From sequence record MZ501075: DNA of 64,000 bases. One strand, 5' to 3'. The translations under genes and the position numbers were made by a program. The DNA is from Escherichia phage IrisVonRoten. The notes under the pieces were generated by a model. The model was not told where the DNA came from. It did no database searches and saw only the letters and a list, made by a program, of their open reading frames with translations. Shown here one piece after another: positions 31,019 through 63,990 of this stretch (the first letter of the stretch is position 1; the number at the start of each line of letters is the position of its first letter).

Positions 31019-31035
31019 CCAAATAAGGAATCTCT

Positions 31036-31287
31036 ATGCACGTTTTTGAGTTTCGTAATAAAAGTACCGATAAACGAGTTATCATTATTGGGGAAACATA
31101 CCGAGCTTATGAACAAACTGACGGCTCTGTTATCTTGAATGATGAAAAAGGAGGTTTTAGCTTTTATCCAGAAGAACCTTACGAAGAGTTTCGAAAACAA
31201 TTTAACCTAGACTGGAGAAAGCATTTAAACACTGTTGCTTCATCTGTAGTATTGCCAACTACCAGTACTGTACTCTCTAATGGCTGA
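31036..31287 (+). CDS. hypothetical protein (83 aa)
   Basis: ORF track. Confidence 0.35.
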   Translation: MHVFEFRNKSTDKRVIIIGETYRAYEQTDGSVILNDEKGGFSFYPEEPYEEFRKQFNLDWRKHLNTVASSVVLPTTSTVLSNG

Positions 31288-31454
31288 CAACCTAAAAGTA
31301 AAGATTGATAAACAAAAGAAACGTGTAGAAGTAGAGATTGGTGAAGAACGTGTTGCCTTTACTTTTGAATTTCTACAGCAAATGGCAATGACAGTTATGA
31401 CTGATAAGTCCCCTGTTATTGAAAAAGAAATCCCGTTGAAATAACGGGATTATC

Positions 31455-31526
31455 GCTCCTAAAGCATTGCTGGCGATGCAGTTGCCTTGTAAGCATCTGA
31501 ACCGGGTTCGATTCCTGGTGGGAGCA
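31455..31526 (+). tRNA. tRNA-Thr (anticodon TGT)
   Basis: Acceptor gctccta/tgggagc, D-stem gcat/atgc, anticodon loop cttgtaa, T-arm ccggg-ttcgatt-cctgg. Confidence 0.6.
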
Positions 31527-31544
31527 CCAAATTTAAAAATTCAT

Positions 31545-31573
31545 TTGCTTTCTCTCTTATTTATCGCTATAAT
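31545..31573 (+). promoter_or_regulatory. T5-type early promoter
   Basis: ttgctttctctcttatttatcgctataat. Confidence 0.55.
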
Positions 31574-31603
31574 ATTTATATAAATTAATGAGAGGGAAAC
31601 CAA

Positions 31604-31897
31604 ATGAAACGTTATCTTTCTGTAGTATTCCAAACTGGTGGCCAAAGATACACCTATGAATTTCCATCTTCTTGGAAAATCAAAGAGGGTGATCAAGTAG
31701 TAGTGCTAACACCGCGTGAAGAGTATAAAGTAGTAACGGTTAAACAAGTATTTCCAAAAGATCATGAACCAGCTAAAGGCATCCGCTATAAGATGATTCA
31801 TGGTGTGGTTCGTCAAGTACCACGAACTGAGGTAGAAGTAGATAAGACTGGAGAAGCTAAATTTCATTATACTTCTTACCTAAACGAGAGGCGATAA
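31604..31897 (+). CDS. hypothetical protein (97 aa)
   Basis: ORF after RBS gagagggaaacc. Confidence 0.45.
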   Translation: MKRYLSVVFQTGGQRYTYEFPSSWKIKEGDQVVVLTPREEYKVVTVKQVFPKDHEPAKGIRYKMIHGVVRQVPRTEVEVDKTGEAKFHYTSYLNERR

Positions 31898-32103
31898 TGA
31901 GAATTTCTTTTACAGAAAAGATCATGAGTAATGGTGTTATGATCATTACCGCGTGGGATGGTAATCAGTGGTGCAGTATTTCAGGTATTAAGCCTGCAGA
32001 TCAAACACCTGAAAACATCCGTAAAGTAAAACGAAAGATGGCGGAATGTGCCCGACTTCCCGGTGCGCCTAGAAATGGTAAACGTTCTACAATTAAATGT
32101 TAA
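31897..32103 (+). CDS. hypothetical protein (68 aa)
   Basis: ORF track; ATGA overlap. Confidence 0.35.
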   Translation: MRISFTEKIMSNGVMIITAWDGNQWCSISGIKPADQTPENIRKVKRKMAECARLPGAPRNGKRSTIKC

Positions 32104-32104
32104 T

Positions 32105-32178
32105 GCTTCGGTAGCTTAGCGATCTAAAGCACTCGGCCGATAACCGAGAGATCGGGGGTTTAAATCCCTCCCGGAGTA
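32105..32178 (+). tRNA. tRNA-Ile (anticodon GAT)
   Basis: Acceptor gcttcgg/ccggagt, anticodon arm ctcgg-ccgataa-ccgag; T-loop tttaaat atypical. Confidence 0.55.
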
Positions 32179-32277
32179 CCAAATTTAGGAATTAAGACTA
32201 TGCGTCCAGGAAAGTTTAAAAAAGCTAATTGGTCTATAGAGTATAAAGAATACTTACTTAGTCTAATAAAACATAAT

Positions 32278-32350
32278 AGTTAGTTGGCAGAGTGGTTATG
32301 CACCTCCTTCATACGGAGCGACTACAGTGGTTCAAATCCACTACTAACTA
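32278..32350 (+). tRNA. tRNA (anticodon CAT; Met or Ile2)
   Basis: Acceptor agttagt/actaact, anticodon loop ttcatac, T-arm agtgg-ttcaaat-ccact. Confidence 0.55.
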
Positions 32351-32390
32351 CCATTAACAGAGCTAGAGATAGCTAAATATAGGAGCAATT

Positions 32391-50326: not shown

Positions 50327-50814
50327 TGAAAGAAGCATTTAAATTTGCTAATATACTGTTTGAACCGACAGAGGATTCGTCGGTTTACTTTCTACAAATA
50401 ACCGATGGTTCTAATGTACGGCGTTATCTAACTGTACTAACTTTTGAAGCTATTAACCTTATTGAAGCTATCAGAAAAATCTCCTATGATTCAGAAGATG
50501 TCCAAACTATCGGATTCCTGAATTTCTTGAAAGAACAGAAATGTGCTGTGATCCCTATGAAAGAACATATTCCTATTGATAGTACGGGAATACTAGAGTC
50601 TTTCCCACTTACTAAATATACTCAATTACATTTGAAAGAGTATACTATATGTCTTGGGGAGGAAGAGTTTGAGGTTCCTAACCCAAGATTCTTATTTGAC
50701 CTAATAAAGAAAACAGCCAAAAATAAATCTGATGCAAAAGATATTATTAATAATATCTTGAGACGTGAAAAAAGATTAGCAGCAACAGCTAGTGGACAGG
50801 CGGATGATATATGA
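50326..50814 (+). CDS. hypothetical protein (162 aa)
   Basis: ORF track. Confidence 0.45.
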   Translation: MKEAFKFANILFEPTEDSSVYFLQITDGSNVRRYLTVLTFEAINLIEAIRKISYDSEDVQTIGFLNFLKEQKCAVIPMKEHIPIDSTGILESFPLTKYTQLHLKEYTICLGEEEFEVPNPRFLFDLIKKTAKNKSDAKDIINNILRREKRLAATASGQADDI

Positions 50815-51536
50815 GTATTAAAAAGAATTTAGCAGAGATTATTAAATTAGCTAGAGCTTGTAATGGAAAATGTGTTTCTCAGCTTAATGAACTAGAAGCA
50901 CATGCAGTAGCGTTTTGTGCAGAGTTTTATCCTGCATACCTTAATGCTAGTGGACAGCCCAAATATAATAAAGATGCAGAAGAAGTTACTTTAGCACCTT
51001 CTTATATTAGTTTACGTCGTTTAATTCAAACCGTTGATCCTACTATTAAAGGGTTCTCAGCAGATTCATTCCATGTCTTTGCGGATAAAGAACTCCCACA
51101 TTTTAAAGAAGGAAATGCAAAGGCTTGTCTAGAATGTTATCCTAATATTTTGATGGTTCCACCTAAGCAATGTAAGTATGATCATCTCCCTAGGCTCACT
51201 AAGAAAGTAGCACCACCTTATTCTTCTCTATCTGAATTAAAGCTAGGAATTGTATCTACACTTGCGCAGATTCATCTAAGTATAGTTGACGACTCAACAA
51301 CATCTAACCCTATTCTAGATGCTGCACATTATGAAATCTTACGTGATCCTGAGCAGGCTAGAAAAGTTGCGAAGTCTGTTAAGTTTGACATCTCAACAAT
51401 TCTTGATACGATGCAAGATACGAGACCTAGGGGAAGTGTAGATTATTCTGCGCTTAATTCTGAGTCATCTTACCTAGCAACATTCCTTTTCATGGCATCG
51501 AAGGGAATCATACTCAAAGTCAATCACGATGTATAA
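50811..51536 (+). CDS. hypothetical protein (241 aa)
   Basis: ORF track. Confidence 0.45.
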   Translation: MSIKKNLAEIIKLARACNGKCVSQLNELEAHAVAFCAEFYPAYLNASGQPKYNKDAEEVTLAPSYISLRRLIQTVDPTIKGFSADSFHVFADKELPHFKEGNAKACLECYPNILMVPPKQCKYDHLPRLTKKVAPPYSSLSELKLGIVSTLAQIHLSIVDDSTTSNPILDAAHYEILRDPEQARKVAKSVKFDISTILDTMQDTRPRGSVDYSALNSESSYLATFLFMASKGIILKVNHDV

Positions 51537-51553
51537 ACGTTAACGAAAAATTC

Positions 51554-51582
51554 TTGACATTATTTGAGCTGCATGTTATAAT
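51554..51582 (+). promoter_or_regulatory. perfect-consensus sigma70 promoter (TTGACA-17-TATAAT) with no downstream ORF
   Basis: ttgacattatttgagctgcatgttataat. Confidence 0.55.
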
Positions 51583-51936
51583 AATCTCATAGATTAAAAA
51601 CATCAACTTGTTTTTACCTCTAGGCCGTAGATTTACATCATTCCTCGTAGGAAAACACTTGATGACGGTTCTGTTCGCAGGTTCTCGTCAATTGTTCTTC
51701 CACACCGAGACTTAGGAGGATGTATCAAATCGCACGCGCCTAGAGGGGCTAACTCTCATGAAATGGGGGTATATTAACTTTTAAATAACTGATAAATATT
51801 TAAAGGCAATATCTGTGTTCAAGATGATACACTTGTTGCCGCTCATCTGCTAGGATGGCATAACACTTTCTTCTAGACTCCTAAGTTTCTAGGAAATTGA
51901 TAAGCACAAATTCTAGAGATCACATAAAAATATTCA

Positions 51937-52674
51937 TCGGATTTGCACATATTCTAGGGCAGTTTTCATGTTCCTAGAAACTCCAGCAATAGGCGGTTTA
52001 ATACAGGGCGGTTATAGGGAGGGCGGTTATTTCTAGGAGACATTTTTCGAAAACACATTTCTGGATTTTACTGTCGGATTTGCACATTGATATTCTAGAA
52101 ATTTATGGTCGGATTTGCACAAATGCCTAAGTTTTTAGGAACTCATACTCTCTTGAGAATAGCAGCATTATTTCGGGCCGAAGGCCCATGATTGCCTGAG
52201 TTTTTAGAGCCACAAGAATTTTCACTTGTCAAGCTATTTTGCCCCATTTTGCTAATAAAATTTTACTTTTTCTGCACCTATCTCAAATTTCCCCAAATTA
52301 TCTCAACTCTTCCCCAAAATCCCCGCAAATCAGGTGCTCCGCACCAATCCTGCGCCCCCACCATTCTAGCCCCCAAATTTCTCTCGCTCTCTCATCTTCT
52401 CCTCAAACCTATACAATCACACACCCTCCAATCGAAGTCACAAAAATCTTGTCGGATTCGCACATCTTAATCCTAGAAAAACCGTGTCGGATTTGCACAT
52501 ATCCCATAGGATTCGAACGCAGTTCGTGATTGCTGGAGTTTTTGGGAAAATTCGTCGTCGGATTCGCACATTACAAAAGTTTTTGGGGTCGGATTTGCAC
52601 ACTACCAAAAATTGTCGGATTCGCACATACATGCCCGCACGTAACACCCGTGGAGCAATGTCGGATTTGCACAA
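51937..52674. repeat. array of nine dispersed copies of a 14-bp motif GTCGGATT(T/C)GCACA
   Basis: Copies near 51937, 52073, 52108, 52451, 52486, 52557, 52588, 52614, 52660. Confidence 0.75.
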
Positions 52675-52731
52675 AAGCGCAGGGCAATTGCCCTGCTCGC
52701 CTGAATGCGAATGATAATGAGAATCAATCTT

Positions 52732-52890
52732 ATTTAAAAAGCGGAATGAGAATGATAATGATTCGCATTTAAAAAGCGGAATGAGAATCAATCTCATTTA
52801 AAAAGCGGAATGATTCTCATTTAAGAAGTGGAAGGATTCTCATTTAAAAAGCGGAATGAGAATCAATCTCATTTAAGAACGGAAGTGAGA
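52732..52890. repeat. iteron-like tandem repeats (about 6 copies of CATTTAARAAGCGGAATGA-like unit)
   Basis: Direct repeats with variable spacers; degenerate copies at 52820 and 52870. Confidence 0.7.
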
Positions 52891-52892
52891 AA

Positions 52893-53010
52893 CACTGTTA
52901 TTTAAGTTATCCACAGACTTATCAACAGCACGATTTGCCTTGACAGAATTCTAGCCATTTTGAGGCGTTATCAACAGACTTATCAACAGCTTATCCTACT
53001 GTATAAATAT
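52893..53010. repeat. left arm of approx. 120-bp imperfect inverted repeat (contains DnaA-box-like TTATCCACA)
   Basis: Reverse complement of 55215-55345 aligns (atttaagttatccaca ... ttatcctactgtataaatatacag). Confidence 0.65.
52907..52915 (+). promoter_or_regulatory. DnaA box consensus TTATCCACA
   Basis: Exact 9-mer. Confidence 0.5.
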
Positions 53011-53162
53011 ACAGTATTCCTATGCAGTGAATAATTCTAATATAGGCTTAAAACGTCCTGAATCGCATTCTAACGCGTTTTATTTTGGAGGAGGTATTTT
53101 AATAAGGGGAAATTTGTTTGCAGGCAGAAAAGGCGGGGCCAGATAGTTGCGCCCCGTTATTA

Positions 53163-53357
53163 TTAGTCCGGTATTTGATGGGAGAACTCTACGCTTTCAC
53201 CGTAGGAATCTACTAGATTAGTGTAGTAACCATACTCATCATATATAAGTTTGTCATACTCTTGATTCTCACAAATTGCGCGGTTTTCTTTTGTATCTTC
53301 TACATAGAATGTATCCACGGTAACACTAGTTTTACTAATAACAATTTTATCACTCAT
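53163..53357 (-). CDS. hypothetical protein (64 aa)
   Basis: ORF track; motif aacggggcgttact immediately upstream of ATG. Confidence 0.4.
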   Translation of the reverse strand: MSDKIVISKTSVTVDTFYVEDTKENRAICENQEYDKLIYDEYGYYTNLVDSYGESVEFSHQIPD

Positions 53358-53598
53358 AGTAACGCCCCGTTATTAATAGATGTATTGTTGAAAATAGCGG
53401 CGGATATTGTCGCCACCGTTGGGATCATTAGCAGGCTTAATATTACCCACGAAAATATATAGTCTCATAACGCCATCGCTCCTAGAATGAGAATGATTAT
53501 CAATATCATTGTAAAGCCATTACCAAATCGTAAACGCTGGGAATGTTTCCCAGCGGTATTATTAGATTTGTGACTTTGCGTTTTACGCCACCAGCTAT

Positions 53599-53811
53599 TC
53601 ACGGTTTTAAATTCTCTATAGTTAATTTTGCGCGAATAGTGATTCCATATAATTCGCCTCCCTTGTTTCTTACATCAGGTAGCCAGTCCCACAATTCAGG
53701 GTATCCGCTTAAAATTCCTAGCGATGCAAGATTAGCAATAAAACCGGCTATAGTAACCGCTTCCAGTGAAATAGTTACACGATTATTAATAACTAAAGTA
53801 AACTTTTTCAT
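53599..53811 (-). CDS. hypothetical protein (70 aa)
   Basis: ORF track. Confidence 0.4.
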   Translation of the reverse strand: MKKFTLVINNRVTISLEAVTIAGFIANLASLGILSGYPELWDWLPDVRNKGGELYGITIRAKLTIENLKP

Positions 53812-54167
53812 TGCGCCACCTTTCGAAACGCTGTTTCGATACTTTCAGCGGTTGATTGAATATACGCGCCTTTCATAATTAGACGCTCCGTACATACTTT
53901 GCGGAAAATGTCAATAAATTCATTTTCATTTTCCGCTATTAACGCTTCCCCCATAACCTGAACGTCACAAGACCCAAAAGTTAAAAATTGAAACGCTAGT
54001 TCACGGGCGACAACGGCATTAATTTTATAGTGCGCCTTGCCCTCATAAATATTAATAACGCCCTTATATGCTGGTGAAAGCTGATTTAAATAGTTTGCTA
54101 ATAATGCCGGACGGCAATTAGTAATAAAGCGATTGCCTTCATAAATAACCATTTTATAACCTCCCAA
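53808..54167 (-). CDS. hypothetical protein (119 aa)
   Basis: ORF track. Confidence 0.45.
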   Translation of the reverse strand: MGGYKMVIYEGNRFITNCRPALLANYLNQLSPAYKGVINIYEGKAHYKINAVVARELAFQFLTFGSCDVQVMGEALIAENENEFIDIFRKVCTERLIMKGAYIQSTAESIETAFRKVAQ

Positions 54168-54275
54168 TCAGGTATCCAGATAAAAGCATAAAAATCCCCA
54201 GTAAAAGGGGATCATTCTTAAATAAGGTGGCGGTAAAACCGCCAACCATTGCAAGGAGAATAACAATAACGCTTT

Positions 54276-54488
54276 TCATAGTACCCCACGAAAGGCCGCG
54301 TAAAAGGTGGCAAAATATTTAACCGTTTCAGCTATCACGTTGCCGCGCTTATCAAATTTCTTTTCTGTAACACGAAAGGCGTTTTTATTCCGTGCTACAT
54401 ATTCGATTTTACAATCCTCCCGCTCGAACGTGTTAACGTCCACCAGCTTAAAACCTTTTGAACGGGCAAGAGAAACGTTGCGGATCAT
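54276..54488 (-). CDS. hypothetical protein (70 aa)
   Basis: ORF track. Confidence 0.4.
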   Translation of the reverse strand: MIRNVSLARSKGFKLVDVNTFEREDCKIEYVARNKNAFRVTEKKFDKRGNVIAETVKYFATFYAAFRGVL

Positions 54489-54683
54489 TTTTATTCTCCT
54501 TTACTCATGCAGCCCAGCAAGTAAGAAAAAACAGCGATACCCGCGCCAATAATAACCGCGTGAACGTCGAAAGCTATTGCAAACAACGATAAAATAGCGC
54601 CCAAGATACCCGCTAGAATAGCTCGAAAAATAACCATTTTTATTCCCCTAGTTAGTGGGGCGAAAGTAACGCCCCGTTATTAA

Positions 54684-54947
54684 TTACATTAAAACGATTT
54701 TGGCGGCTTGTTTTTTGGTGCAATGTTCCGCCTTCAGGGTATCCAGCAAAAAGCCAGCCGTTTGCTGATCGATTTGATCATTATCATAAAGCGCCTGAAT
54801 GGTAGTGTATGTTTTAGCAATGCCGTATTCTTGCACCATTTCTTGAATGATCCAGCGATTTGATACCCAACCTTTTCCAGTGAAAAGAGCGTCAGAAGAA
54901 GAATAAGCAACCATTTTAAGCCTCCAATTTTTTGGGAAAATTTTCAA
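54684..54947 (-). CDS. hypothetical protein (87 aa)
   Basis: ORF track. Confidence 0.4.
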   Translation of the reverse strand: MKIFPKNWRLKMVAYSSSDALFTGKGWVSNRWIIQEMVQEYGIAKTYTTIQALYDNDQIDQQTAGFLLDTLKAEHCTKKQAAKIVLM

Positions 54948-55214
54948 CCGTCCTCGAACGGTGTAAAGGCATTATAACAAAAAAGGCCGCTATAAAAGGC
55001 GACCTTTACAAAACTTTACATTAGGTTAGTTATTACTCTCTTTCTCTTTCTAGTTACTTGGGGCATATTGGTCAACCGCGCAGCGGTACAGTAAAGAGCA
55101 AAACACGGTGAAGCCACCAGGGCGACGGGTGAAGGCTTCACTTTAATATTACCCCACCGCATTTAGCTCGTTAGAAAGCGTTTTAGGCCGCCTAAAATTG
55201 ATTGCAGTTGTTAA

Positions 55215-55345
55215 CACTACCCATTTACCCTGTATATTTATACAGTAGGATAACATGTGGATAAGTCTGTGGATAAGTCCTTATATCGCCGCCTATCGTG
55301 TCAAATCATTTTGTGCTGTTAATAACATTGTGGATAACTTAAATG
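55215..55345. repeat. right arm of approx. 120-bp imperfect inverted repeat with three DnaA boxes
   Basis: tgtggataag x2 and tgtggataa (reverse-complement TTATCCACA). Confidence 0.65.
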
Positions 55346-55371
55346 ATAGTGGTTCTCACTTAGGACGATAG

Positions 55372-55424
55372 TTTCTTATAGTTATTATTTCTATCGGTTA
55401 CGATTTCTTATAATTATTATTTCT
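55372..55424. repeat. 21-bp direct repeat pair (TTTCTTATARTTATTATTTCT)
   Basis: Two near-identical copies 11 bp apart. Confidence 0.6.
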
Positions 55425-55620
55425 CATTAATTTATAAGTATATTATATATCATGAAATAGTTAGTTGGCTAATGAGATTTTCCGTGATTAATAGTCTGCT
55501 AATAGTTCCGGCTGTTACAATCCACCAGCATGATTATCATCCTAGCAACTATTAGTCTGCTATCTTTCCGATGCATACTAACAAATAAAAGTCAATTAAT
55601 TTATTTCATAAAATAAGTAG

Positions 55621-55653
55621 TTATCCACTGGAAAATAAAAGTCAAGTGGATAA
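55621..55653. promoter_or_regulatory. pair of convergent DnaA-box-like sites (TTATCCACT / AGTGGATAA)
   Basis: 8/9 matches to TTATCCACA in inverted orientation. Confidence 0.4.
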
Positions 55654-56109
55654 CTAGGAAAATTTCATTTTTGCTTTTGGGGATAAGTTATCAACAAGGC
55701 TAGAATGCGCCTAAAACGCCCTAGAACGCGATGAAAGTTTTAGCCATGCCATTGCATTGCCTACCCTCGTTTATCGCTACCACGAGCTTTTTAGTTTTTG
55801 TCAAGTAGGGCAAGGCAAATATAAATGAAAAAATTACTTGCCAACCTGCTCGGTTTTATGGTATTCGCGCGCCCGTTTCCTTTAATTTTAGTGCGCCGCG
55901 CCCAGGTCGCCGCACGGTGTCCGGTGGCATTTTGTCTTTACGTTTCTTTACAAAAATAAGGTTGCGCCATTTTTACTATTTGCTATTATTTATCTCGTAG
56001 GGCGGCAATGACGAACTACACGGCGGGAAGTTTACCGCCGCGCTCTTTAAAAATTGGGTACATCTTAAAGTCTATCGGCGGTAAACTTATATTATAAGGA
56101 ATCGCAGAT

Positions 56110-56313
56110 ATGAAACAAACTTTATTGATCACTGGTAAACCAGCTAAAAAATTAGATGGTACTACTAAAAAATTGTTGACAATAGCCCAGCAATCCGTAA
56201 AATACCGATTTGCTCAGTACAAGAAAGGCCGCCAGCAGGGTTTAGAAATGATCTGGCGTAATATTATGATCGACCTGAAAGAAAATCATAAAAAACTGCA
56301 AAAAACAGTTTGA
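56110..56313 (+). CDS. hypothetical basic protein (67 aa)
   Basis: ORF after RBS taaggaatcgcagatATG. Confidence 0.4.
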   Translation: MKQTLLITGKPAKKLDGTTKKLLTIAQQSVKYRFAQYKKGRQQGLEMIWRNIMIDLKENHKKLQKTV

Positions 56314-56542
56314 CACTCTAGCCGATAGGCTTTAAGATGTACCCAGTTCGATGAGAGCGATAACTTGATACAATTTGACGGCCGGTACTTGCCATAATGT
56401 GCCCCGCCCCCCTAACTGGGATATAGCGGCCCGCGTGGAGTTCCTTAAATTGATTATAATGGCGAGTGGATTTTTTCTTATTATCTGCTAGAAAGTAGCA
56501 GATAATGCGGAACAATCCGTTTAATAAACTGGAGTTTATACC

Positions 56543-56794
56543 ATGAAAAACGTTATTAATACGCCTAAAATTGGTCAATCCGTTTTCATCCCTTTCGTTA
56601 CTAAAACGGATGAACTAACCGGAAAAGCCGAACGTATTAAAGGTGCGGCGCTTATGCCGTTTGATACAATCGACGCGGTATACGCTGAAAATGAACGTAG
56701 TAACAACGGCAAAACCGTTTTTAGCGTTCGCGTTAAATCCGGCGACGTTGTAAAGGTTGTACAGCGTAACGAAAAATGGGAAGCTGTAGCGTAA
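56543..56794 (+). CDS. hypothetical protein (83 aa)
   Basis: ORF after RBS ctggagttt. Confidence 0.45.
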   Translation: MKNVINTPKIGQSVFIPFVTKTDELTGKAERIKGAALMPFDTIDAVYAENERSNNGKTVFSVRVKSGDVVKVVQRNEKWEAVA

Positions 56795-56890
56795 TAGTGT
56801 TACTTTTATATCCCCCAGTAGTTCGGGGGATATAACGATTAACATTATGTTAATCTTATCCCTTAAATTAAACTAATAGGAGTTTTTACC

Positions 56891-57298
56891 ATGACTAACG
56901 TTAAAACCGCAAAATTTGCTTGGAATGAAGAAAACACTCAAAAAGCTGTTTCTATGTACCAGCAGTTAATTAATGAAAACGGTTTAGATTTCGCAAATAG
57001 CGACGGTTTAAAAGAGATTGCAAAAGCAGTGGGCGCGTCTTCTCCCGTGTCTGTTCGCTCAAAATTGACCAGCGCAAAAGCGTATCAGAAAAGCGATAAG
57101 CCTCGCAAAGTTGGCGGCGGTAGCTCAATCCGCAAAGCTCACTATGTACGCGTTATCGCTAAACATGCTATTGATTCCGGCATTATTAAAGACGCCGACG
57201 ATCTGGCAAGTCTGGAAAGTGCAAAACTTGAAACGCTGGACGCCGTAGCGCAACTGTTAGGCGTTGCCGATGAAGTAAAACAGGCCGCAGGTGAATAA
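56891..57298 (+). CDS. A2: A2-like pre-early protein (candidate)
   Basis: 135 aa protein just upstream of A1-like gene; identification by size/position only. Confidence 0.4.
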   Translation: MTNVKTAKFAWNEENTQKAVSMYQQLINENGLDFANSDGLKEIAKAVGASSPVSVRSKLTSAKAYQKSDKPRKVGGGSSIRKAHYVRVIAKHAIDSGIIKDADDLASLESAKLETLDAVAQLLGVADEVKQAAGE

Positions 57299-57306
57299 AT
57301 TTAATT

Positions 57307-57332
57307 AGTGGGGAATATTCCCCACTATAATT
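57307..57332 (+). terminator. terminator-like hairpin
   Basis: agtggggaatattccccact. Confidence 0.45.
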
Positions 57333-57354
57333 TCCCTTTGACTGGAGTTTTAAA

Positions 57355-57552
57355 ATGATCTTTTACCCCACTGAATCGTTAATTCTAGGCTTATTTATTA
57401 TGGCGGCCTCGTTATTATTCGCTTATTTTCAAAATGATTTAGACTCATATTATTTTAAACGTAAGTCTAAATTGGCAAAGCGTTTAGGTCTGATTTGTTT
57501 TATTGCCGCCATTGCTTGTGGTGTTAGTTCTAGCCTAGTGCCTTTAAATTAA
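57355..57552 (+). CDS. small membrane protein (65 aa)
   Basis: Two hydrophobic helices. Confidence 0.4.
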   Translation: MIFYPTESLILGLFIMAASLLFAYFQNDLDSYYFKRKSKLAKRLGLICFIAAIACGVSSSLVPLN

Positions 57553-57642
57553 TGTTGCAAATTATAACGCCTATTGTTCGAGGCGTTATATTTGGCAATA
57601 TTGCCGTTATTAACCTAATCCCTTTAATGGAGTTTTATTACT

Positions 57643-59313
57643 ATGATTATTTCCGCAGAAAAACAAACCGTTATCCTGAAAATGGCCGCTGACTTTAACT
57701 TCTACGGTAAACGCCTGCGCGCCACTAAATTGGAAGTTTGTGACGATATTTCGAAAGCGGTATACGATACTACTAAACACTCCACCGCCATTTGTGATTG
57801 GTTGGAAGCAAATAAACCAGCGAAACCAAAAGCGGCAAAAGTAGCAAAAGCCATTAAAAATGATGAGCGCCCAGAAGCGGCTGGGATTGTTTCTAGTACG
57901 GTGGAGCAATGGGAAGTAAAACAAGGTAAACGCTTTATTATTACATCGATTCAGAATAATACTTTCCCGCATAAAAACTTTTTAGCCTCACTGGAGCAAT
58001 TTGCTAAATATATCGGTGCTGATTTGCTTGTTTCTAAGTATATTTATAATAAAAACGGTTTTCAAAATGGGGAAGGTGCGGATGGAATCAAATATGATTC
58101 CGCGTTCGATAAATATATTTGCAGCAAAAACGTGTTTTTAAATAACCGCCGCTTTGCTTTCATGGCTGAAATTAATGTTTTGCCAACCGCAGATTATCCG
58201 CTTTCTGGATTCGCCGAGACTGCAACGGCTTTAAATATTGAGGGGCTGGCAATTGGTCACGCTAAAATTACCGCTGAAAGCGTGCCAGCTTTAAAAGGTG
58301 AAGTAGTGCGCCGTATGTATTCAACCGGAACGGCAACGTTAAAAAACTACATTCAGCAGAAAGCAGGACAAAAGGCCGAGGCGCTGCATAACTTCGGTGC
58401 GCTAATTGTCGAGTTCGACGAGGACGGGGAATTTTTTGTTCGCCAGCTTGAAACAATGGACGAAAGCGGGGTGTTTTATGATCTGAACGTTTGCGCTACT
58501 CCTGCCGGATGCTATGAGACATCGGGGCATGTTTTAGGCTTGCAGTATGGCGATATTCACGCCGAAAAATTAGATGAGGAGTGCGCCGCCGCATCTTGGG
58601 GGCATGGTGATACTTATGGGCTAGTAGATATTCTTAAACCAAAATATCAGTTTGTGCATGACGTTCACGATTTTACATCCCGCAATCATCATAACCGCGC
58701 ATCCGGTGTATTCCTAGCTAAACAATACGCCGCCGGACGTGATAAAGTTCTGGATGATCTTATCGATACGGGGCGCGTGCTGGAATCAATGGAACGTGAT
58801 TTTAGTCAAACAATCATTGTTGAATCTAATCACGATTTGGCGCTATCCCGTTGGCTTGATGATCGTAATGCTAACATCAAAGACGATCCAGCAAACGCCG
58901 AGTTATATCACCGCCTGAATGCTGCAATTTACGCGGCAATCGGTGAACACGACGAAACGTTTAACGTGCTAGATTATGCGTTGCGCAAGGTTGCAGGTTG
59001 TGAATTTAACGCCATTTTCCTGACCACTGATCAATCTTTCAAGATTGCAGGCATTGAATGCGGCGTACACGGTCACAATGGCATTAACGGCAGTCGTGGC
59101 AATCCTAAACAATTTAAAAAATTGGGCAAGTTAAACACGGGGCATACCCATACCGCCAGCATTTATGGCGGCGTATATACCGCTGGCGTTGCTGGTAGTC
59201 TGGATATGGGTTACAACGTTGGCGCGTCAAGCTGGACGCAAACGCATTTAATTACCTATGCAAATGGTCAACGCACTTTGATTGACTTTAAAAACGGTAA
59301 ATTCTTTGCATAA
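57643..59313 (+). CDS. A1: A1-like pre-early protein with metallophosphoesterase motifs
   Basis: 556 aa; GDIHAEKLD, GHGDTYG, HDVHDF, GHTHT phosphoesterase-like motifs. Confidence 0.55.
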   Translation: MIISAEKQTVILKMAADFNFYGKRLRATKLEVCDDISKAVYDTTKHSTAICDWLEANKPAKPKAAKVAKAIKNDERPEAAGIVSSTVEQWEVKQGKRFIITSIQNNTFPHKNFLASLEQFAKYIGADLLVSKYIYNKNGFQNGEGADGIKYDSAFDKYICSKNVFLNNRRFAFMAEINVLPTADYPLSGFAETATALNIEGLAIGHAKITAESVPALKGEVVRRMYSTGTATLKNYIQQKAGQKAEALHNFGALIVEFDEDGEFFVRQLETMDESGVFYDLNVCATPAGCYETSGHVLGLQYGDIHAEKLDEECAAASWGHGDTYGLVDILKPKYQFVHDVHDFTSRNHHNRASGVFLAKQYAAGRDKVLDDLIDTGRVLESMERDFSQTIIVESNHDLALSRWLDDRNANIKDDPANAELYHRLNAAIYAAIGEHDETFNVLDYALRKVAGCEFNAIFLTTDQSFKIAGIECGVHGHNGINGSRGNPKQFKKLGKLNTGHTHTASIYGGVYTAGVAGSLDMGYNVGASSWTQTHLITYANGQRTLIDFKNGKFFA

Positions 59314-59369
59314 TTAAATTATTCCCCTAGCGGCTTGAAATATAGCCGCTATTACAGGAGTCACAAAAA

Positions 59370-59627
59370 ATGAAAGTTACATTACCCAAAACATTGGACG
59401 AAAAAGTATTCATTTCACCGGATGAAATGGAATCTGATAAAGTTTACAGCTTCGGGCCTATCCTAGCCGCTAAAACTAACACTGATGGTATTATTTCCGT
59501 CGATTCCCGTGATAATGATGTTGTTCCTTTTGATGACGATGGCGCTTTTTATGAGTGGCTGAGCGATAATAATTTACCCGTAAACGGTGAATTAACGCCG
59601 TACCAGATGCAGATTATTATCAAATAA
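59370..59627 (+). CDS. hypothetical acidic protein (85 aa)
   Basis: ORF track. Confidence 0.4.
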   Translation: MKVTLPKTLDEKVFISPDEMESDKVYSFGPILAAKTNTDGIISVDSRDNDVVPFDDDGAFYEWLSDNNLPVNGELTPYQMQIIIK

Positions 59628-59665
59628 ATTAAATCAATTATTAAACTAATTGGAGTTTTATAAAC

Positions 59666-60064
59666 ATGAAAAAGCAAAATATTCCATTTGACCGCGCTCA
59701 GTCTTCCATTGTTCTGGTTTATTCTAATGGCGAACGTTACCACGTCGAGGCGGGGCACGTTATTGATGAATTACTAGACTTTAATGACGCTTTGCAGGTT
59801 ACAACATTTGCATATACGCAGGGCAAACTAACCAGCCATATTAAAGCAAAAGGCGTTTATGTTGACACGGTGAAACAAGAAACGACCATTATTGACGCCG
59901 TAAAATCCGGCCTAGCCTTTGCAGTTGTAGCGCCTTGCCTCGCTTGCCTCGATGATCAATTGATCAGCGCAAAGGTATACACCTGCGCGGGTATTCGTTC
60001 CAGCGTATCCGGTGAGGATGTTAGTTTTATCGCTGATGCGTTGGCTTTTGGTCTGGCGTTCTAA
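59666..60064 (+). CDS. hypothetical protein (132 aa)
   Basis: ORF track. Confidence 0.4.
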   Translation: MKKQNIPFDRAQSSIVLVYSNGERYHVEAGHVIDELLDFNDALQVTTFAYTQGKLTSHIKAKGVYVDTVKQETTIIDAVKSGLAFAVVAPCLACLDDQLISAKVYTCAGIRSSVSGEDVSFIADALAFGLAF

Positions 60065-60144
60065 TAGTTAATTTATTATTACCCGCTATCTATAAGCGGG
60101 TAATGCTGAATTAATCTAATCCCTTAAATGGAGAACGTAACAAA

Positions 60145-60879
60145 ATGAATCAAGTTAAGACGAATATTACCCGTAATTTCCCGCATATTTCCCGCGTCAT
60201 GATTTGGGATCTGGACGGCACTATCATTAACTCTTTCCATCGTGTAGCGCCTTGCTTTGATAGCGAGGGCAATTTAGATTTAAATAAGTATAAAAATGAA
60301 GCCTGCAAACATGATTTAATAATGCAAGATACACTATTGCCCCTTGTTACATATATGCGCCAGTGCATGAATGACGCAAATACTTTAAACATTATTTGCA
60401 CCGCTCGACTAATGAGCAAGTCGGACTATTATTATTTGCGTAAACAAGGGTTGCGCGGTCGTGGTGATAGTAATATCCGTGTATTTTCCCGCGATACACT
60501 ACACAAATATTTTGAAGCTGATAAAGTTAGCGAGATATACCACAGCAAAGACGCAGTTTATAAAAGTTACTATTTTGGGCTATTCAAACAATTATATCCG
60601 AACGCTGATTTTACAATGATTGATGATCATAAAGGCGTGCTATCAGCGGCAGCGTCATACGGATTTAAAACGCTGGACGCACAAGCCGTTAACGATATTC
60701 TATCAATCGGCGTGACATTGATAGGTGAAACCTTTATTGATGAATCTCTTGAGGATGATAATGATTATCAGTTCCTAGCCGACCGCCTGCAATTATGTTG
60801 GGAAGGTATGACCGAAGAAGAACGCGCAGAATATAGTTGCAGCCCGCAACAATATATTGAGAAATTAAAAGTTGCGTAA
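60145..60879 (+). CDS. dmp: deoxyribonucleoside-5'-monophosphatase-like HAD protein (Dmp-like)
   Basis: 244 aa; HAD motif I MIWDLDGTIINS; location next to A1-like gene. Confidence 0.55.
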   Translation: MNQVKTNITRNFPHISRVMIWDLDGTIINSFHRVAPCFDSEGNLDLNKYKNEACKHDLIMQDTLLPLVTYMRQCMNDANTLNIICTARLMSKSDYYYLRKQGLRGRGDSNIRVFSRDTLHKYFEADKVSEIYHSKDAVYKSYYFGLFKQLYPNADFTMIDDHKGVLSAAASYGFKTLDAQAVNDILSIGVTLIGETFIDESLEDDNDYQFLADRLQLCWEGMTEEERAEYSCSPQQYIEKLKVA

Positions 60880-61039
60880 TAATTAAAGTTGAAATTGTTT
60901 CACCTTGCAATTAAAATGGTTGCAGGGTGAAACAGTTAGCATGGTAATAGTAACGGGCGGTAATGAGACTCATTCTCATCTGAGAGGCCACTGGACACAC
61001 CCACGCGTACGTAATCCAAAGAAATTGGCAAAAGTCAAA

Positions 61040-61285
61040 TTAGCGCATAGAAGGGTCATCAAACCTGTGCTCTGGTCTGAACTCACGGAATCTCTTCCGC
61101 GACGCCCGAGATCCATCCGACCACTCCCGCTCAAACTCCGCACGTTTCTCGTCAAACTTCCGCTCCCTTTCCGCAATCTCCCGCGATACTTCCGCAGTAT
61201 ACTTACGATGCTTGTTAATAGCCGCAGTCATTCCGAAAATTCCCGCAAGTACCCCGATAATAAAAGCAATTATAATACTAAACAT
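61040..61285 (-). CDS. small membrane protein (81 aa)
   Basis: N-terminal TM helix, charged C-terminus. Confidence 0.4.
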   Translation of the reverse strand: MFSIIIAFIIGVLAGIFGMTAAINKHRKYTAEVSREIAERERKFDEKRAEFEREWSDGSRASRKRFREFRPEHRFDDPSMR

Positions 61286-61472
61286 CTAATTCCCTCTCAA
61301 TTTGCAGAATACGGGTACTATCACAACGTTGGAGTTCTACTAATTTTTCTATAGCAAATTGTTGCTGTTTTACCCGAGCCTCTAGAGTTTTTAGGCGAAC
61401 GTATACGGTGCAAGAAGCAATGAAAATTGTCCAGACTAGTATTACTGTTACTATAGCTACTACTTCCATCAT
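61278..61472 (-). CDS. small membrane protein (64 aa)
   Basis: N-terminal TM helix; overlapping start/stop with neighbours. Confidence 0.4.
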   Translation of the reverse strand: MMEVVAIVTVILVWTIFIASCTVYVRLKTLEARVKQQQFAIEKLVELQRCDSTRILQIERELDV

Positions 61473-61880
61473 TTACGTTTCTCCGTTAATAAAGTTTCAA
61501 TTCTAGCTAAGTGATTATCTAAAATACATTGCCCGATAATCACAACCCCTAGTAGTGCAATAATTATCCATTCCATTAAATCCACCCCGCCATAGCGGCT
61601 AACCAAAAACCTACGAAAATAAAGAATAGGATAGTTCCGAACCCAAAACTATTTATCCAACTCTCATACACTTCTCCACGCCTGCTCTTTCTTTTGTTTG
61701 ACATATCTTTCATGCTCCTATAAATGTGGTATTTAAAATATTTTATAATTTGGGCATAACCAACCGTGCCTGTGAACTCCTAGAAGGACTCCTATTTTTC
61801 TTACCTAGTGGTTTCTGCCAATATACCATCCAAGAAATAAAAAATTTAGTTTACTTGGATGTCTTTTTGTTTTATACTAA

Positions 61881-62147
61881 TTACAGGTAATTAGATTGCT
61901 CTAGTTTAAATTTACAATCACCATATTTAAGGTCAAACTGACTGAGATCCCACCACCCAAATTTAGTACGGAGCTGTACTACTGGGAAGCGATCTCCCTT
62001 AATACGAACTTTTTGAACCTTGAGGCCGTAATGTTCTTCTCCCGCACCACCAAAAGATTTTACAAATCCAGTACAAAATGGTTTGGGAGCAGGTGCACAA
62101 CCAGATAACATAACTGTGGCAACTAGTGCAATTACAAACTTTTTCAT
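61881..62147 (-). CDS. llp: lipoprotein, Llp-like (candidate superinfection-exclusion lipoprotein)
   Basis: Signal peptide + lipobox LSGC; divergent from adjacent receptor-binding-protein candidate. Confidence 0.5.
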   Translation of the reverse strand: MKKFVIALVATVMLSGCAPAPKPFCTGFVKSFGGAGEEHYGLKVQKVRIKGDRFPVVQLRTKFGWWDLSQFDLKYGDCKFKLEQSNYL

Positions 62148-62232
62148 ATTTATCTCTCCATTTCTAATTTATGAATTTATTATAGCAAAATAGAGGGATG
62201 AAAGCAAATACATTTTTATAATAGGAGATTAT

Positions 62233-63990
62233 ATGGGTTTTTTCGCTGGAAAGTATAGCGATGGTAAGACCGTACTATCCTTAAATACTGAATCTGGTGG
62301 TGACATTAATCGTCACTATAGTCCAAATGCCAATAGTATTTTTCATAGTGATATGCCATTTGTCCTAGTTGATGGTACTTACGAGGCTGGGCTAGGTAAT
62401 GCCGGAAATGGGTTTTTTGTATGTCAGATGCCTTCTGACATAATAAATATTAAATCCAATGACCCAGGTAGAGTTATACTAACTGCTATTGAAATTAATG
62501 GTACTCACAGAGCTTTTCTTAATGGTACTCAGAGTAAAGTTGGTCAAACTATAGTTGCCACTCAGGCAGATCCCTTTAGATCTTTTGCTAGTGTTTCTCA
62601 AACCAGTGGGTTTGCATTTGGTAATAGTCTAGCATCTGGCACTTATAATTATAATCCCTCGATAGGGCATGAAGAATCTATCTCTAGGAGTGGTACAGGG
62701 GGTACTACGTTACATAGTACCTATCATGGGATAGTTAGGCCCGGTGCGGGAGCTCCTGTAGGTGTTACTGTTGCAGAAGCCTTTGCACAATTAGGTTTTC
62801 CTACTAATAGTAGCACAGTACCTGTAGATGGCAATAACCCGTACTATTGGGATCCTGGATGGATGTCGCCTCTAGGAGCAGCGCATAGAGGGCATGATTG
62901 GTTTTATGTCTGCAATTCTAATATACGTGGATATGGTGGGGTTAGACAAGGGCTCCCAGGTAATGTAAATACTATGTACCACGACGGTGGGAACAGATTT
63001 GTTTGTAGGGGATCTACTACTAATTTAGCTAACCAGTCGGGTGACTCTACAATACTACAGGATTGGTATAATATAACTCCTACTAAGGTTATTTGGTATG
63101 TTCTTAATTTAAGGTACTCTAATGGTGGAATGAGTATTTCAGGCAACCCCTTTACTGGTTCCGATATTCTTATATCTCCTTCTAATTTCATAATTAAAGG
63201 GGTAAGTCTCCCCAATACCGGGTATAAATTTATAAATCAGAATGCTTTTGGTAACCTAGGTTACCGTCCTGATATGGAGTATATAGGGAATAACGCAGCG
63301 TATACTGGGGTTTTTGGGGATACTACTGCAAGGTGTGAACTTGTAGGGTCTAGTAATGGAGGATTATGGTCTCCTGTAGACTATGGTGGAGCTAAATCAC
63401 AGATTAGCATTTATAAGTTCGGAGTAGGTAAACAGTGGTATGTAAACTCAAATAATAATACTATTGGTAATGAACATGGGGTTGTTTGGGGGCCCTCAGC
63501 AGTTCCACTGCGACTTTTTGGTGGAAATGTAGGTAGTTCTTATATGGGAGATGATATTACACCCCACTATCCAGGAACTGGGGATAGATACGTTGGTTTA
63601 TCAACTATTGGGCTGGGTATACCAGGCGGAAATGCTACAGTAATTCTTACTACTGAAGTTATATCAGGTAATCTTAATTGTGCAGGTGTTCCCGCTAATA
63701 CATGGAATAATGGTGTGTTTCAGGTGCAAGGAAGAAGAGCATATAGCTATAGCGGCGGGGATGCAATATTCCACCAGATTTTAACGCTACCTGTGGGCTA
63801 TCTAGTACCTTTTCATACTACATCTGCTTTTAGATACACGCCTAACAATGCTCTTAGTAGAAACAGTTTTATATATACCGTTAAAAATCTAGGAAATGGA
63901 AATGTAGAGTTAGGAGTAGTTATGCACGTGAGTTTGGGTAGCGCAGTTTTCCTACCTAGATTAAGAGTAACAGTTCAACGCCTTACCTAA
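62233..63990 (+). CDS. candidate receptor-binding tail protein (pb5/Oad-like)
   Basis: 585 aa Gly/Asn/Ser-rich protein adjacent to Llp-like gene; assignment by context. Confidence 0.45.
   Translation: MGFFAGKYSDGKTVLSLNTESGGDINRHYSPNANSIFHSDMPFVLVDGTYEAGLGNAGNGFFVCQMPSDIINIKSNDPGRVILTAIEINGTHRAFLNGTQSKVGQTIVATQADPFRSFASVSQTSGFAFGNSLASGTYNYNPSIGHEESISRSGTGGTTLHSTYHGIVRPGAGAPVGVTVAEAFAQLGFPTNSSTVPVDGNNPYYWDPGWMSPLGAAHRGHDWFYVCNSNIRGYGGVRQGLPGNVNTMYHDGGNRFVCRGSTTNLANQSGDSTILQDWYNITPTKVIWYVLNLRYSNGGMSISGNPFTGSDILISPSNFIIKGVSLPNTGYKFINQNAFGNLGYRPDMEYIGNNAAYTGVFGDTTARCELVGSSNGGLWSPVDYGGAKSQISIYKFGVGKQWYVNSNNNTIGNEHGVVWGPSAVPLRLFGGNVGSSYMGDDITPHYPGTGDRYVGLSTIGLGIPGGNATVILTTEVISGNLNCAGVPANTWNNGVFQVQGRRAYSYSGGDAIFHQILTLPVGYLVPFHTTSAFRYTPNNALSRNSFIYTVKNLGNGNVELGVVMHVSLGSAVFLPRLRVTVQRLT

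What the first reader, a model, noticed from the sequence alone, without database searches (positions are those of the whole stretch)
51540..61880. Window appears to cross a collapsed T5-type terminal repeat
Read in reverse, the order is: receptor-binding candidate and Llp-like lipoprotein, then Dmp-like, A1-like and A2-like genes, then the repeat/DnaA-box region, then early genes. In T5-type genomes this corresponds to the late end, the terminal repeat, and the early start. The roughly 10-kb span 51.6-61.8 kb is therefore probably a terminal repeat present once in a circularised assembly.
Basis: partly seen in the sequence, partly recalled or inferred. Interest (0 to 1): 0.5.

Follow-up and report, generated by a model that had tools for sequence, protein, structure and literature searches.

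The report
Collapsed T5-type terminal repeat, boundaries corrected

Summary
Read in reverse, the window runs receptor-binding protein, Llp lipoprotein, dmp, A1, A2, a repeat and DnaA-box region, then early genes. This is the T5 order "late end – terminal repeat – early start". The A2–dmp block occurs once in the window and has unique sequence from opposite virion ends on either side. That is how a collapsed or circularised assembly, or a concatemer junction, looks.

The limits are wrong. I projected the repeat ends of seven relatives onto the window. T5, BF23 (read-based PhageTerm), SIA3lw, MM-1 and Spc35 (inner end only) converge on 52207 and 60996/60997. Kenya-K37 is within 30 bp. chee24 is off by 100–200 bp. 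The predicted repeat is 52207–60997 (8,791 bp), not 51540–61880.

The excluded flanks hold a unique 670-bp non-coding spacer and four small membrane-protein genes. These lie outside the repeat in the relatives whose late-side junction I read.

The repeat is short because it lacks the T5.011 homologue, its 164-aa neighbour and hegG. Kenya-K36 has the same form, with an 8,641-bp repeat.

Every hallmark of the T5 first-step-transfer region is present. The duplication itself cannot be shown without reads. This is ordinary and well documented.

The parts
52207..60997 (.). Predicted terminal repeat, 8,791 bp, present once here (LTR and RTR collapsed). In window orientation the virion DNA would start at 52207 and end at 60997.
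   Evidence: Repeat ends of T5, BF23, SIA3lw and MM-1 project to 52207 and 60996/60997. Spc35's left-repeat end (the only junction read for it) also projects to 52207. K37 projects to 52236/60981 and chee24 to 52414/60895. Junction sequences are conserved...CCTGAGTTTTTA|GAGCCACA... and ...CTGGACA|CACC.... The reference repeats were checked as 100% identical pairs for T5, chee24, SIA3lw and BF23.
60145..60879 (+). dmp (deoxynucleoside-5'-monophosphatase), the pre-early gene nearest the terminus
   Evidence: phrog_415, E 4e-57. Maps base for base onto T5 dmp 124-858.
59666..60064 (+). T5.002 homologue, function unknown
   Evidence: phrog_4576, E 3e-81. T5 mapping.
59370..59627 (+). T5.003-like small pre-early ORF
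   Evidence: phrog_8297, E 2e-50. Partial T5 mapping.
57643..59313 (+). A1 DNA transfer protein, needed in T5 for second-step transfer and host DNA degradation
   Evidence: phrog_1745, E 2e-244. Maps onto T5 A1 1706-3376. An identical protein occurs in VEc33 and LR597655.
57355..57552 (+). T5.005-like 65-aa membrane protein
   Evidence: T5 mapping. Homologues carry PF26907.
56891..57298 (+). A2 DNA-binding protein
   Evidence: phrog_1725, E 1e-51. Maps onto T5 A2 3727-4134.
56543..56794 (+). T5.007 homologue (DUF7177)
   Evidence: Pfam PF23801, E 5e-42. T5 mapping.
56110..56313 (+). T5.008 homologue (DUF7416). It overlaps the counterpart of T5 promoter P-H22.
   Evidence: Pfam PF24188, E 7e-37. 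T5 P-H22 maps to 56155-56229. TTGACA-16-TAAAAT lies at 56176-56203.
55230..55361 (.). Inverted-repeat arm equivalent to T5 IRCspacerIRD, with two pairs of DnaA/DnaA* boxes on the - strand (55256, 55268, 55317, 55329)
   Evidence: Inverted repeat I1: 132 nt, 78% complementary. Boxes. Layout as in Davison, 10.1101/866236.
53163..54947 (-). Divergent block of small pre-early ORFs (T5.012-T5.015 homologues, then three small ORFs at 53163-53811 without clear T5 counterparts), ending at a terminator near 53129-53150
   Evidence: T5 mapping of T5.012-T5.015; T5.016 mapped only weakly and T5.017 not at all. ORFs. T5 terminator 9275-9296 maps to about 53129.
52883..53014 (.). Inverted-repeat arm equivalent to T5 IRD'spacerIRC', the proposed core of the injection stop signal. 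It has two pairs of boxes on the + strand (52907, 52919, 52968, 52980), 3 bp apart within each pair.
   Evidence: T5's annotated iss (9140-10149) maps from 52277 upward. Davison's description.
52703..52905 (.). Tandem array of 23/29/35-nt units (AATGAGAATCAATCTCATTTAAAAAGCGG), each partly palindromic
   Evidence: TRF: period 29, 6.8 copies, score 156. Family D1.
52676..52677 (+). Position homologous to T5's annotated major single-strand interruption (AAAA|GCGC). An 18-bp perfect palindrome follows.
   Evidence: T5 feature 9748/9749 maps here. Sequence. The nick itself was not observed.
51937..52673 (+). Nine same-strand copies of TCGGATT(T/C)GCACA (probably T5 'DRD'). Three lie outside the repeat and six inside, so they straddle the inner boundary.
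   Evidence: 10 in the window against 0.09 expected. Offsets from the boundary are -270, -133, -98, +245...+454, against T5's -270, -133, -98, +246...+455. Davison: nine DRD copies, and Repeat Region 3 overruns the LTR by 270 bp.
51537..52206 (.). Unique non-coding spacer between the last early ORF and the repeat.
   Evidence: Projection of boundaries. No ORF longer than 35 aa. Perfect promoter at 51554-51582.
60998..61880 (-). Unique late-end segment with four small single-pass membrane-protein genes (61040-61285, 61278-61472, about 61469-61576, about 61576-61713; T5.159-T5.162-like), co-directional with llp.
   Evidence: ORFs. The T5 annotation places T5.159-T5.162 before the RTR start. BF23 and MM-1 show four or more such genes there, and SIA3lw, Kenya-K37 and chee24 show two or three.
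61881..62147 (-). Llp / Cor-type receptor-blocking lipoprotein (late-end marker)
   Evidence: phrog_1119, E 1e-25. 99% identical to BF23 Llp. Lipobox LSGC.
62233..63990 (+). Receptor-binding tail protein (pb5/Oad type), late-end marker
   Evidence: phrog_4815, E 7e-275. 97-98% identical to chee24, SIA3lw and MM-1, 68% to BF23 and 30% to T5.
50811..51536 (+). Last early-region ORF before the repeat (early-start marker)
   Evidence: phrog_8993, E 2e-114. Collinear with Spc35_0016 and SIA3lw_00173.

Best explanation
The window comes from a Tequintavirus-like (T5-like) phage, in the reverse of the T5 record's orientation. Positions 52207-60997 (8,791 bp) are its long direct terminal repeat, written once. 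In the virion the DNA would be linear, beginning at 52207 and ending at 60997 in window orientation, with this segment at both ends. In replicative concatemers, and in any assembly that merges the two identical copies, the single copy sits between the late end (RBP, llp and four small membrane-protein genes) and the early start. That is what the window shows. By homology, the repeat is the first-step-transfer DNA. The end at 60997 enters the cell first. Strong sigma-70 promoters express dmp, A1, A2 and the small pre-early genes. Transfer pauses at the injection stop signal near 52.7-53.0 kb, where the tandem repeats and paired DnaA boxes lie. A1 and A2 then allow the rest of the DNA to enter. 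Shown here: gene identities, single-copy status, conservation of both terminus sequences, and conservation of every internal landmark. Inferred: the physical duplication, the exact ends, and all the injection steps.
For: 490 T5-like records match the region, and the genes are identified. The repeats in T5, chee24, SIA3lw and BF23 were verified from their own two ends. T5, BF23, SIA3lw and MM-1 project to 52207 and 60996/7, and Spc35's inner end also projects to 52207. BF23's ends come from reads via PhageTerm (PMC10644984). The sequence at both junctions is conserved, and T5_R, SIA3lw_L and the VEc33 record break exactly there. The DRD-like motif offsets from the boundary match T5 to within 1-9 nt. 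The eight paired DnaA/DnaA* boxes sit in a 132-nt inverted repeat, as Davison describes for 25 T5-like phages. The T5 nick site AAAA|GCGC is conserved. The region is single copy in the window. Kenya-K36 has an 8,641-bp DTR with the same deletion form. Published T5-like DTRs range from 8,451 to 10,020 bp, and PMC10783031 describes the 2x-coverage collapse into circular assemblies. There are 448 records but only 534 places for the A2-dmp block.
Against: No reads or virion DNA are available, so the duplication and the exact ends are inferred by homology only. chee24's annotated ends project 207 and 102 bp away, and K37's 29 and 16 bp away. An uncertainty of tens to about 200 bp therefore remains. 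The source contig was not found, so its length and topology are unknown. The 30-40 nt just inside the outer terminus vary among relatives.
Confidence: 0.88

Rival explanations
1. The repeat spans what the first reader proposed (51540-61880, about 10.3 kb). It would then include the spacer after the last early gene and the four small membrane-protein genes next to llp.
For: T5's own repeat is about 10.2 kb, so the proposed size looked right. Repeat-rich sequence (DRD-like copies and palindromes) does extend to about 51880.
Against: In T5, BF23, SIA3lw and MM-1 (and Spc35 for the early side) the homologous flanks are unique sequence outside the repeat. Davison states that Repeat Region 3 overruns the LTR by 270 bp, which matches the three outside DRD-like copies here. 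The missing 1.4 kb is explained by the absence of T5.011, the 164-aa gene and hegG.
Confidence: 0.03
2. The repeat is real but has chee24-like ends (about 52414-60895, roughly 8.5 kb). The outer terminus would then lie 16 nt past the dmp stop codon.
For: The chee24 annotation projects there. The window shares with chee24 the variable sequence just inside the outer terminus. Its RBP is 97% identical to chee24's.
Against: The other references agree on 52207 and 60997, including the classical T5 ends and the read-based BF23 ends. chee24 keeps the same conserved junction sequences and motif spacing, merely offset by 207 nt from its annotated boundary. That suggests an annotation difference rather than a different cut site.
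Confidence: 0.06
3. The layout is not an assembly artefact. The sequenced molecule was a replicative concatemer or circular intermediate, or the depositor wrote one repeat copy on purpose and opened the record at an arbitrary point.
For: The sequence is identical in all these cases. Several public records annotate a PhageTerm repeat yet deposit one copy, such as Sw2 and Sepoy. Many others open at arbitrary points with the block internal.
Against: Nothing in the sequence tells these apart from assembler collapse. This is a difference of history, not of biology.
Confidence: 0.3
4. This phage has lost terminal redundancy, or packages by a headful, permuted mechanism. The region would then be only homologous to a repeat and single copy in the virion.
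For: No direct evidence. It cannot be excluded without reads.
Against: Both terminus sequences and all flanking landmarks are conserved with phages whose repeats were shown by reads, PFGE or end sequencing. Every relative examined here whose termini were determined has such a repeat.
Confidence: 0.03

Closest known systems
Escherichia phage T5 left/right terminal repeat (NC_005859, 10,219 bp; first-step-transfer region)
   Same: It has the same gene order (dmp, T5.002, T5.003, A1, T5.005, A2, T5.007, T5.008). It has the same divergent small-ORF block and the same iss architecture. The DRD-like motif offsets from the boundary are the same, and so are the nick-site sequence and both terminus junction sequences.
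   Different: The window lacks hegG, T5.011 (DUF7566) and the neighbouring gene, so its repeat is about 1.4 kb shorter. Nucleotide identity is about 86-94%. All eight DnaA-type boxes are present, whereas T5 has seven in these positions. The adjacent RBP is only 30% identical to T5 pb5.
Escherichia phage BF23 terminal repeats (OR083247, 9,743 bp, PhageTerm-determined; PMC10644984)
   Same: Both boundaries project to the same window positions. The Llp is 99% identical. The untranslated repeat and DnaA-box region lies at the FST/SST border.
   Different: BF23 keeps the 330-aa and 164-aa genes that are absent here. Nucleotide identity is lower, at about 81-82% across the junctions.
Salmonella phage Kenya-K36 (OQ291033, 8,641-bp DTR) and its single-copy sibling Kenya-K42
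   Same: It has the short form of the repeat with a contiguous junction across the T5.011 deletion. The repeat size is close to the 8,791 bp predicted here. K42 (106,332 bp) matches at the same record coordinates as K36 but in only one place, an example of a single-copy record beside a two-copy one. The source paper documents the 2x coverage.
   Different: Only about 87% identical across that junction. The annotated ends of the Kenyan phage I projected (K37) sit about 16-30 bp from the T5/BF23 positions.
Salmonella phage vB_SalS-SIA3lw (PP094244, 9,916-bp repeats, deposited in the same orientation as the window)
   Same: It is the closest well-annotated relative across both junctions, at 90-94% identity. 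Its boundaries project to 52207 and 60996. The RBP is 98% identical.
   Different: It carries the 336-aa and 164-aa genes missing here, and a 127-bp internal duplication near T5.003.

Membership tests
T5-type long direct terminal repeat / first-step-transfer region (Tequintavirus, Demerecviridae) | The same sequence is present at both ends of the linear virion DNA | not testable with these tools
   Only one copy is in the window. There are no reads or virion DNA, and the source contig was not found.
T5-type long direct terminal repeat / first-step-transfer region (Tequintavirus, Demerecviridae) | dmp, A1 and A2 lie in this order starting from the outer terminus | tested here: met
   PHROGs hits and base-for-base mapping onto T5. 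Davison uses this as a criterion.
T5-type long direct terminal repeat / first-step-transfer region (Tequintavirus, Demerecviridae) | A large untranslated iss region at the inner end holds the IRD'spacerIRC' / IRCspacerIRD inverted repeat and about eight DnaA/DnaA* boxes in pairs 3 bp apart | tested here: met
   The 132-nt inverted repeat lies at 52883-53014 / 55230-55361. There are four + strand and four - strand boxes in pairs with 12-nt start-to-start spacing. Compare.
T5-type long direct terminal repeat / first-step-transfer region (Tequintavirus, Demerecviridae) | The DRD repeat array straddles the inner boundary, overrunning into unique DNA by about 270 bp | tested here: met
   Nine copies lie at offsets -270 to +454, matching T5.
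T5-type long direct terminal repeat / first-step-transfer region (Tequintavirus, Demerecviridae) | Sequences at both boundaries are homologous to termini determined experimentally or from reads | tested here: met
   T5, BF23, SIA3lw and MM-1 project to 52207 and 60996/7, and Spc35's inner end to 52207. The junction sequences are conserved.
T5-type long direct terminal repeat / first-step-transfer region (Tequintavirus, Demerecviridae) | In the collapsed or concatemer form, the repeat is flanked by oad/llp (late end) on the outer side and early genes on the inner side | tested here: met
T5-type long direct terminal repeat / first-step-transfer region (Tequintavirus, Demerecviridae) | A site-specific single-strand nick lies within the repeat | tested here: inconclusive
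   The sequence at the homologous position (AAAA|GCGC, 52676|52677) is conserved. A nick cannot be seen in sequence.
T5-type long direct terminal repeat / first-step-transfer region (Tequintavirus, Demerecviridae) | About 2x read depth over the repeat, with sharp edges and read-end pile-ups | not testable with these tools
   No read data. Described for relatives in PMC10783031.
Headful-packaged, circularly permuted genome (considered as an alternative) | No fixed ends, and terminal redundancy that is not sequence-specific | not testable with these tools
   Only indirect evidence exists, and it points the other way: both fixed-end junction sequences are conserved.

The most novel reading that the evidence does not exclude
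The nine same-strand DRD-like copies flank the inner terminus asymmetrically, three at -270 to -98 and six at +245 to +454. The motif-free gap between them holds an invariant GGGCCGAAGGCCC hairpin about 20 nt before the cut. This array could be the recognition array for the packaging enzyme that sets the right-hand genome end. The arrangement resembles the binding boxes that flank pac or cos cleavage sites in other phages. Separately, the conserved perfect promoter at 51554-51582 may drive a structured non-coding RNA with a variable core that reads across this site. I did not find either function described in the papers I read.
Probability: 0.12. Interest if true: 0.45.

Novelty: new member of a known kind. 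Interest (0 to 1): 0.12.

Why it matters
The value is mainly practical. The true genome of this phage should be about 8.8 kb longer than a collapsed contig suggests. The pre-early genes are diploid in the virion. The record should be opened at 52207 or 60997 rather than at an arbitrary point. Corrected boundaries prevent four late-end membrane-protein genes and the unique spacer from being wrongly annotated as duplicated. The short repeat form shows again that the T5.011-type gene and its neighbour are dispensable pre-early genes. None of this would surprise a T5 specialist.

Tried and rejected
1. Source contig. An exact 45-mer across the 55.05-kb deletion junction had no match in IMG/VR. An exact look-up of the A1 protein found other phages (VEc33, LR597655 and a metagenome scaffold) that carry genes absent here, so none is the source. 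The RBP is not on record. The nearest genomes are only about 92-93% identical.

2. Pfam on the pre-early proteins. This Pfam copy lacks the T5-specific families (PF26880, PF26822 and others) that are listed for homologues. Only DUF7177 and DUF7416 hit, so I relied on PHROGs and nucleotide collinearity.

3. Rfam on 51000-62300. Nothing credible appeared; there was one miRNA model at E 0.26.

4. A shared cut-site motif at the two termini. Both window junctions have CCAC 4-7 nt past the cut. T5's outer junction does not, so I rejected this as chance.

5. The +-strand ORF at 60905-61354 (149 aa, TTG start). It has no family hit and overlaps the conserved --strand T5.162/T5.161 homologues, so I treated it as spurious. 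The ORFs inside the repeat array at 52192-52797 were treated the same way.

6. chee24's annotated boundaries. I considered them and kept them only as a minor rival, because its conserved landmarks are simply offset from its annotation.

Full report
**What the window is.** The span 51540-61880 matches 490 phage records. Nearly all are T5-like phages of Salmonella and Escherichia, and the best matches reach about 89-92% identity over about 90% of the span. The rest of the window is also T5-like: 20-45 kb is 92-93% identical to VSe12, VEc33 and T5, and 25 tRNA genes lie at 18.8-32.4 kb. The window runs in the reverse of the T5 record's orientation. The exact phage is not in the collections I could search.

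**Checking the observation.** PHROGs identifies the following:
- A2 DNA-binding protein at 56891-57298 (+)
- A1 DNA transfer protein at 57643-59313 (+)
- the dmp-type nucleotidase at 60145-60879 (+)
- a Cor/Llp exclusion protein at 61881-62147 (-)
- a receptor-binding tail protein at 62233-63990 (+)

The Llp has a lipoprotein signal ending in LSGC. Each pre-early gene maps base for base onto its T5 counterpart. The last early ORF ends at 51536.

The repeat and DnaA-box region is also real:
- TTATCMACA occurs 8 times in the whole window, all between 52907 and 55696, against 1.8 expected.
- A 13-nt motif, TCGGATTYGCACA, occurs 10 times against 0.09 expected. Nine copies lie on the + strand at 51937-52673.
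- A tandem array of 23/29/35-nt units lies at 52703-52905.
- A 132-nt inverted repeat joins 52883-53014 to 55230-55361.

**Where the repeat really ends.**
- *Checking the references.* I compared the two ends of four reference records directly. The repeats are 100% identical pairs of 10,219 bp in T5, 9,968 bp in chee24 and 9,916 bp in SIA3lw, and 9,743 bp in BF23. For MM-1, Kenya-K37 and Spc35 I used the annotated boundaries.
- *Inner (early-side) end.* It projects to window 52207 for T5, SIA3lw and Spc35 and for BF23 and MM-1. Kenya-K37 gives 52236 and chee24 gives 52414.
- *Outer (late-side) end.* This is the genome's left terminus in T5 terms. It projects to 60997 for T5 and BF23 and to 60996 for SIA3lw and MM-1. 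K37 gives 60981 and chee24 gives 60895.
- *How the reference ends were found.* BF23's ends were determined from reads with PhageTerm (PMC10644984). The Kenyan phages were analysed with PhageTerm, coverage maps and PFGE (PMC10783031).
- *Conservation at the junctions.* The inner junction is almost invariant across ten sequences...TTTCGGGCCGAAGGCCCATGATTGCCTGAGTTTTTA|GAGCCACA.... The right ends of T5 and SIA3lw start exactly at GAGCCACA. At the outer junction...CTGGACA|CACC..., the T5 left end and the VEc33 record break at the same base.
- *Landmark spacing.* The motif copies sit at -270, -133, -98, +245, +280, +351, +382, +408 and +454 from the boundary. In T5 they sit at -270, -133, -98, +246, +271, +352, +383, +409 and +455. 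In chee24 the same landmarks are shifted by a constant 207 nt, so its outlying boundary looks like an annotation difference.

The predicted repeat is therefore 52207-60997, or 8,791 bp.

- *Early side, 51537-52206.* This is a unique non-coding spacer. Davison notes that T5's Repeat Region 3 overruns the LTR into unique DNA by 270 bp. That is exactly where the three outside motif copies lie here.
- *Late side, 60998-61880.* This holds four small single-pass membrane-protein genes on the - strand, co-directional with llp. Their T5 homologues T5.159-T5.162 lie before the RTR start. BF23 and MM-1 show four or more such genes outside the repeat, and SIA3lw, Kenya-K37 and chee24 show two or three.

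**Why the repeat is short.** Relative to T5 the window lacks hegG and jumps across T5.011. Relative to chee24, SIA3lw and BF23 it lacks both the roughly 330-aa DUF7566 gene and the 164-aa gene next to it. This form is not unique. Kenya-K36, Kenya-K42 and YJin-2024a match contiguously across the junction, and SP3 and a few others match over 82% or more of it. Kenya-K36 has an annotated DTR of 8,641 bp. Published T5-like repeats range from 8,451 to 10,020 bp.

**Is it collapsed?** Within the window the segment occurs once. Sequences that lie at opposite ends of the virion DNA in T5 flank it on the two sides. A record holding both copies at its ends could not look like this. The layout equals the concatemer junction, and it is also what an assembler produces when it merges two identical 8.8-kb copies. 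The literature supports this:
- Davison notes that many GenBank T5-like records are arranged wrongly because assembly software has difficulty with the large terminal repeats.

In the phage collection the A2-dmp block matches 448 records but only 534 places, so at most about one record in five holds it twice. In an evenly spaced sample, near-complete single-copy records are 103.7-115.5 kb and often have the block internal. Two-copy records are mostly 114.8-123.5 kb; the one exception, SP3 (109.3 kb), probably has a partial second match. I cannot tell assembler collapse from a deliberately single-copy, arbitrarily opened record, or from sequenced concatemers. The sequence is the same in all three cases.

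**How it most likely works (by homology; not shown here).**
- The end at 60997 enters first.
- Promoters homologous to T5's P-H22 and P-D/E20 map to 56155-56229 and 56364-56686. Consensus-like sites lie at 56176-56203 and 56310-56338. These would drive the +-strand pre-early operon through A2, A1 and dmp.
- The divergent --strand block at 53163-54947 ends at a terminator near 53129-53150.
- Transfer pauses at the injection stop signal. T5's annotated iss maps from 52277 to about 53280. The estimated shear point that Davison quotes falls in the tandem array near 52.73 kb, by my offset from the nick position.
- The eight DnaA-type boxes are arranged as in Davison's comparison of 25 phages: pairs 3 bp apart, with two pairs in each arm of the inverted repeat. 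His proposal that membrane-bound DnaA holds the DNA there is untested, as the BF23 paper also says.
- T5's annotated major nick maps to 52676|52677, at AAAA|GCGC, just after the last motif copy and before an 18-bp perfect palindrome.

**Verdict.** This is a correct recognition of a well-known situation, with the boundaries misplaced by 667 bp and 883 bp and the size overestimated by about 1.5 kb. It is a new member of a thoroughly described kind. The duplication itself awaits read mapping.

Noticed in passing
window 51554-51830 (+): A perfect extended sigma-70 promoter (TTGACA, 17 nt, TG-TATAAT) lies 18 nt after the last early ORF's stop codon and points at the repeat. The 242 nt downstream have no ORF longer than 35 aa and fold at -72.6 kcal/mol (z = -5.0). 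The promoter and the 3' part are conserved in all relatives checked. The middle 105-130 nt is replaced by unrelated sequence in several, while a closing helix is kept, with three pairs changed on both sides. This may be a structured non-coding RNA with a variable core. It has no Rfam match.
   Followed up: partly
window 51937-52673 (+), plus one copy at 50060: Nine same-strand copies of TCGGATT(T/C)GCACA straddle the inner repeat boundary, three outside and six inside. An invariant GGGCCGAAGGCCC hairpin at 52174-52188 lies about 20 nt before the terminus. No copy lies near the outer terminus. The motif probably corresponds to T5 'DRD', and I found no function assigned to it in the papers I read. 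It might serve in end recognition.
   Followed up: partly
window about 55044-55074: The deletion form of the repeat lacks the T5.011/DUF7566 gene (about 330 aa) and the adjacent 164-aa gene, as well as hegG. This brings the two DnaA-box arms 2.2 kb apart instead of 3.3-3.6 kb. Kenya-K36, Kenya-K42 and YJin-2024a share it contiguously, and SP3 and a few others over most of the junction.
   Followed up: yes
window 61881-63990: The receptor module is not of the T5/FhuA type. The RBP (585 aa) is 97-98% identical to chee24, SIA3lw and MM-1, 68% to BF23 and 30% to T5 pb5. The Llp (88 aa) is 99% identical to BF23 Llp. BF23 uses BtuB (PMC10644984), so BtuB is the likely receptor.
   Followed up: partly
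window 18826-32353 (+): Twenty-five tRNA genes lie on one strand, covering 19 amino-acid specificities. This is typical of the T5 early region.
   Followed up: no
L009 8398-8651 / L010 11524-11777 (SIA3lw): SIA3lw carries a 127-bp tandem duplication inside its repeat, near the T5.003-like ORF. The window does not have it.
   Followed up: no
window 60905-61354 (+): A 149-aa TTG-start ORF spans the outer repeat boundary. It has no family match and overlaps the conserved minus-strand T5.161/T5.162 homologues, so it is almost certainly spurious.
   Followed up: yes
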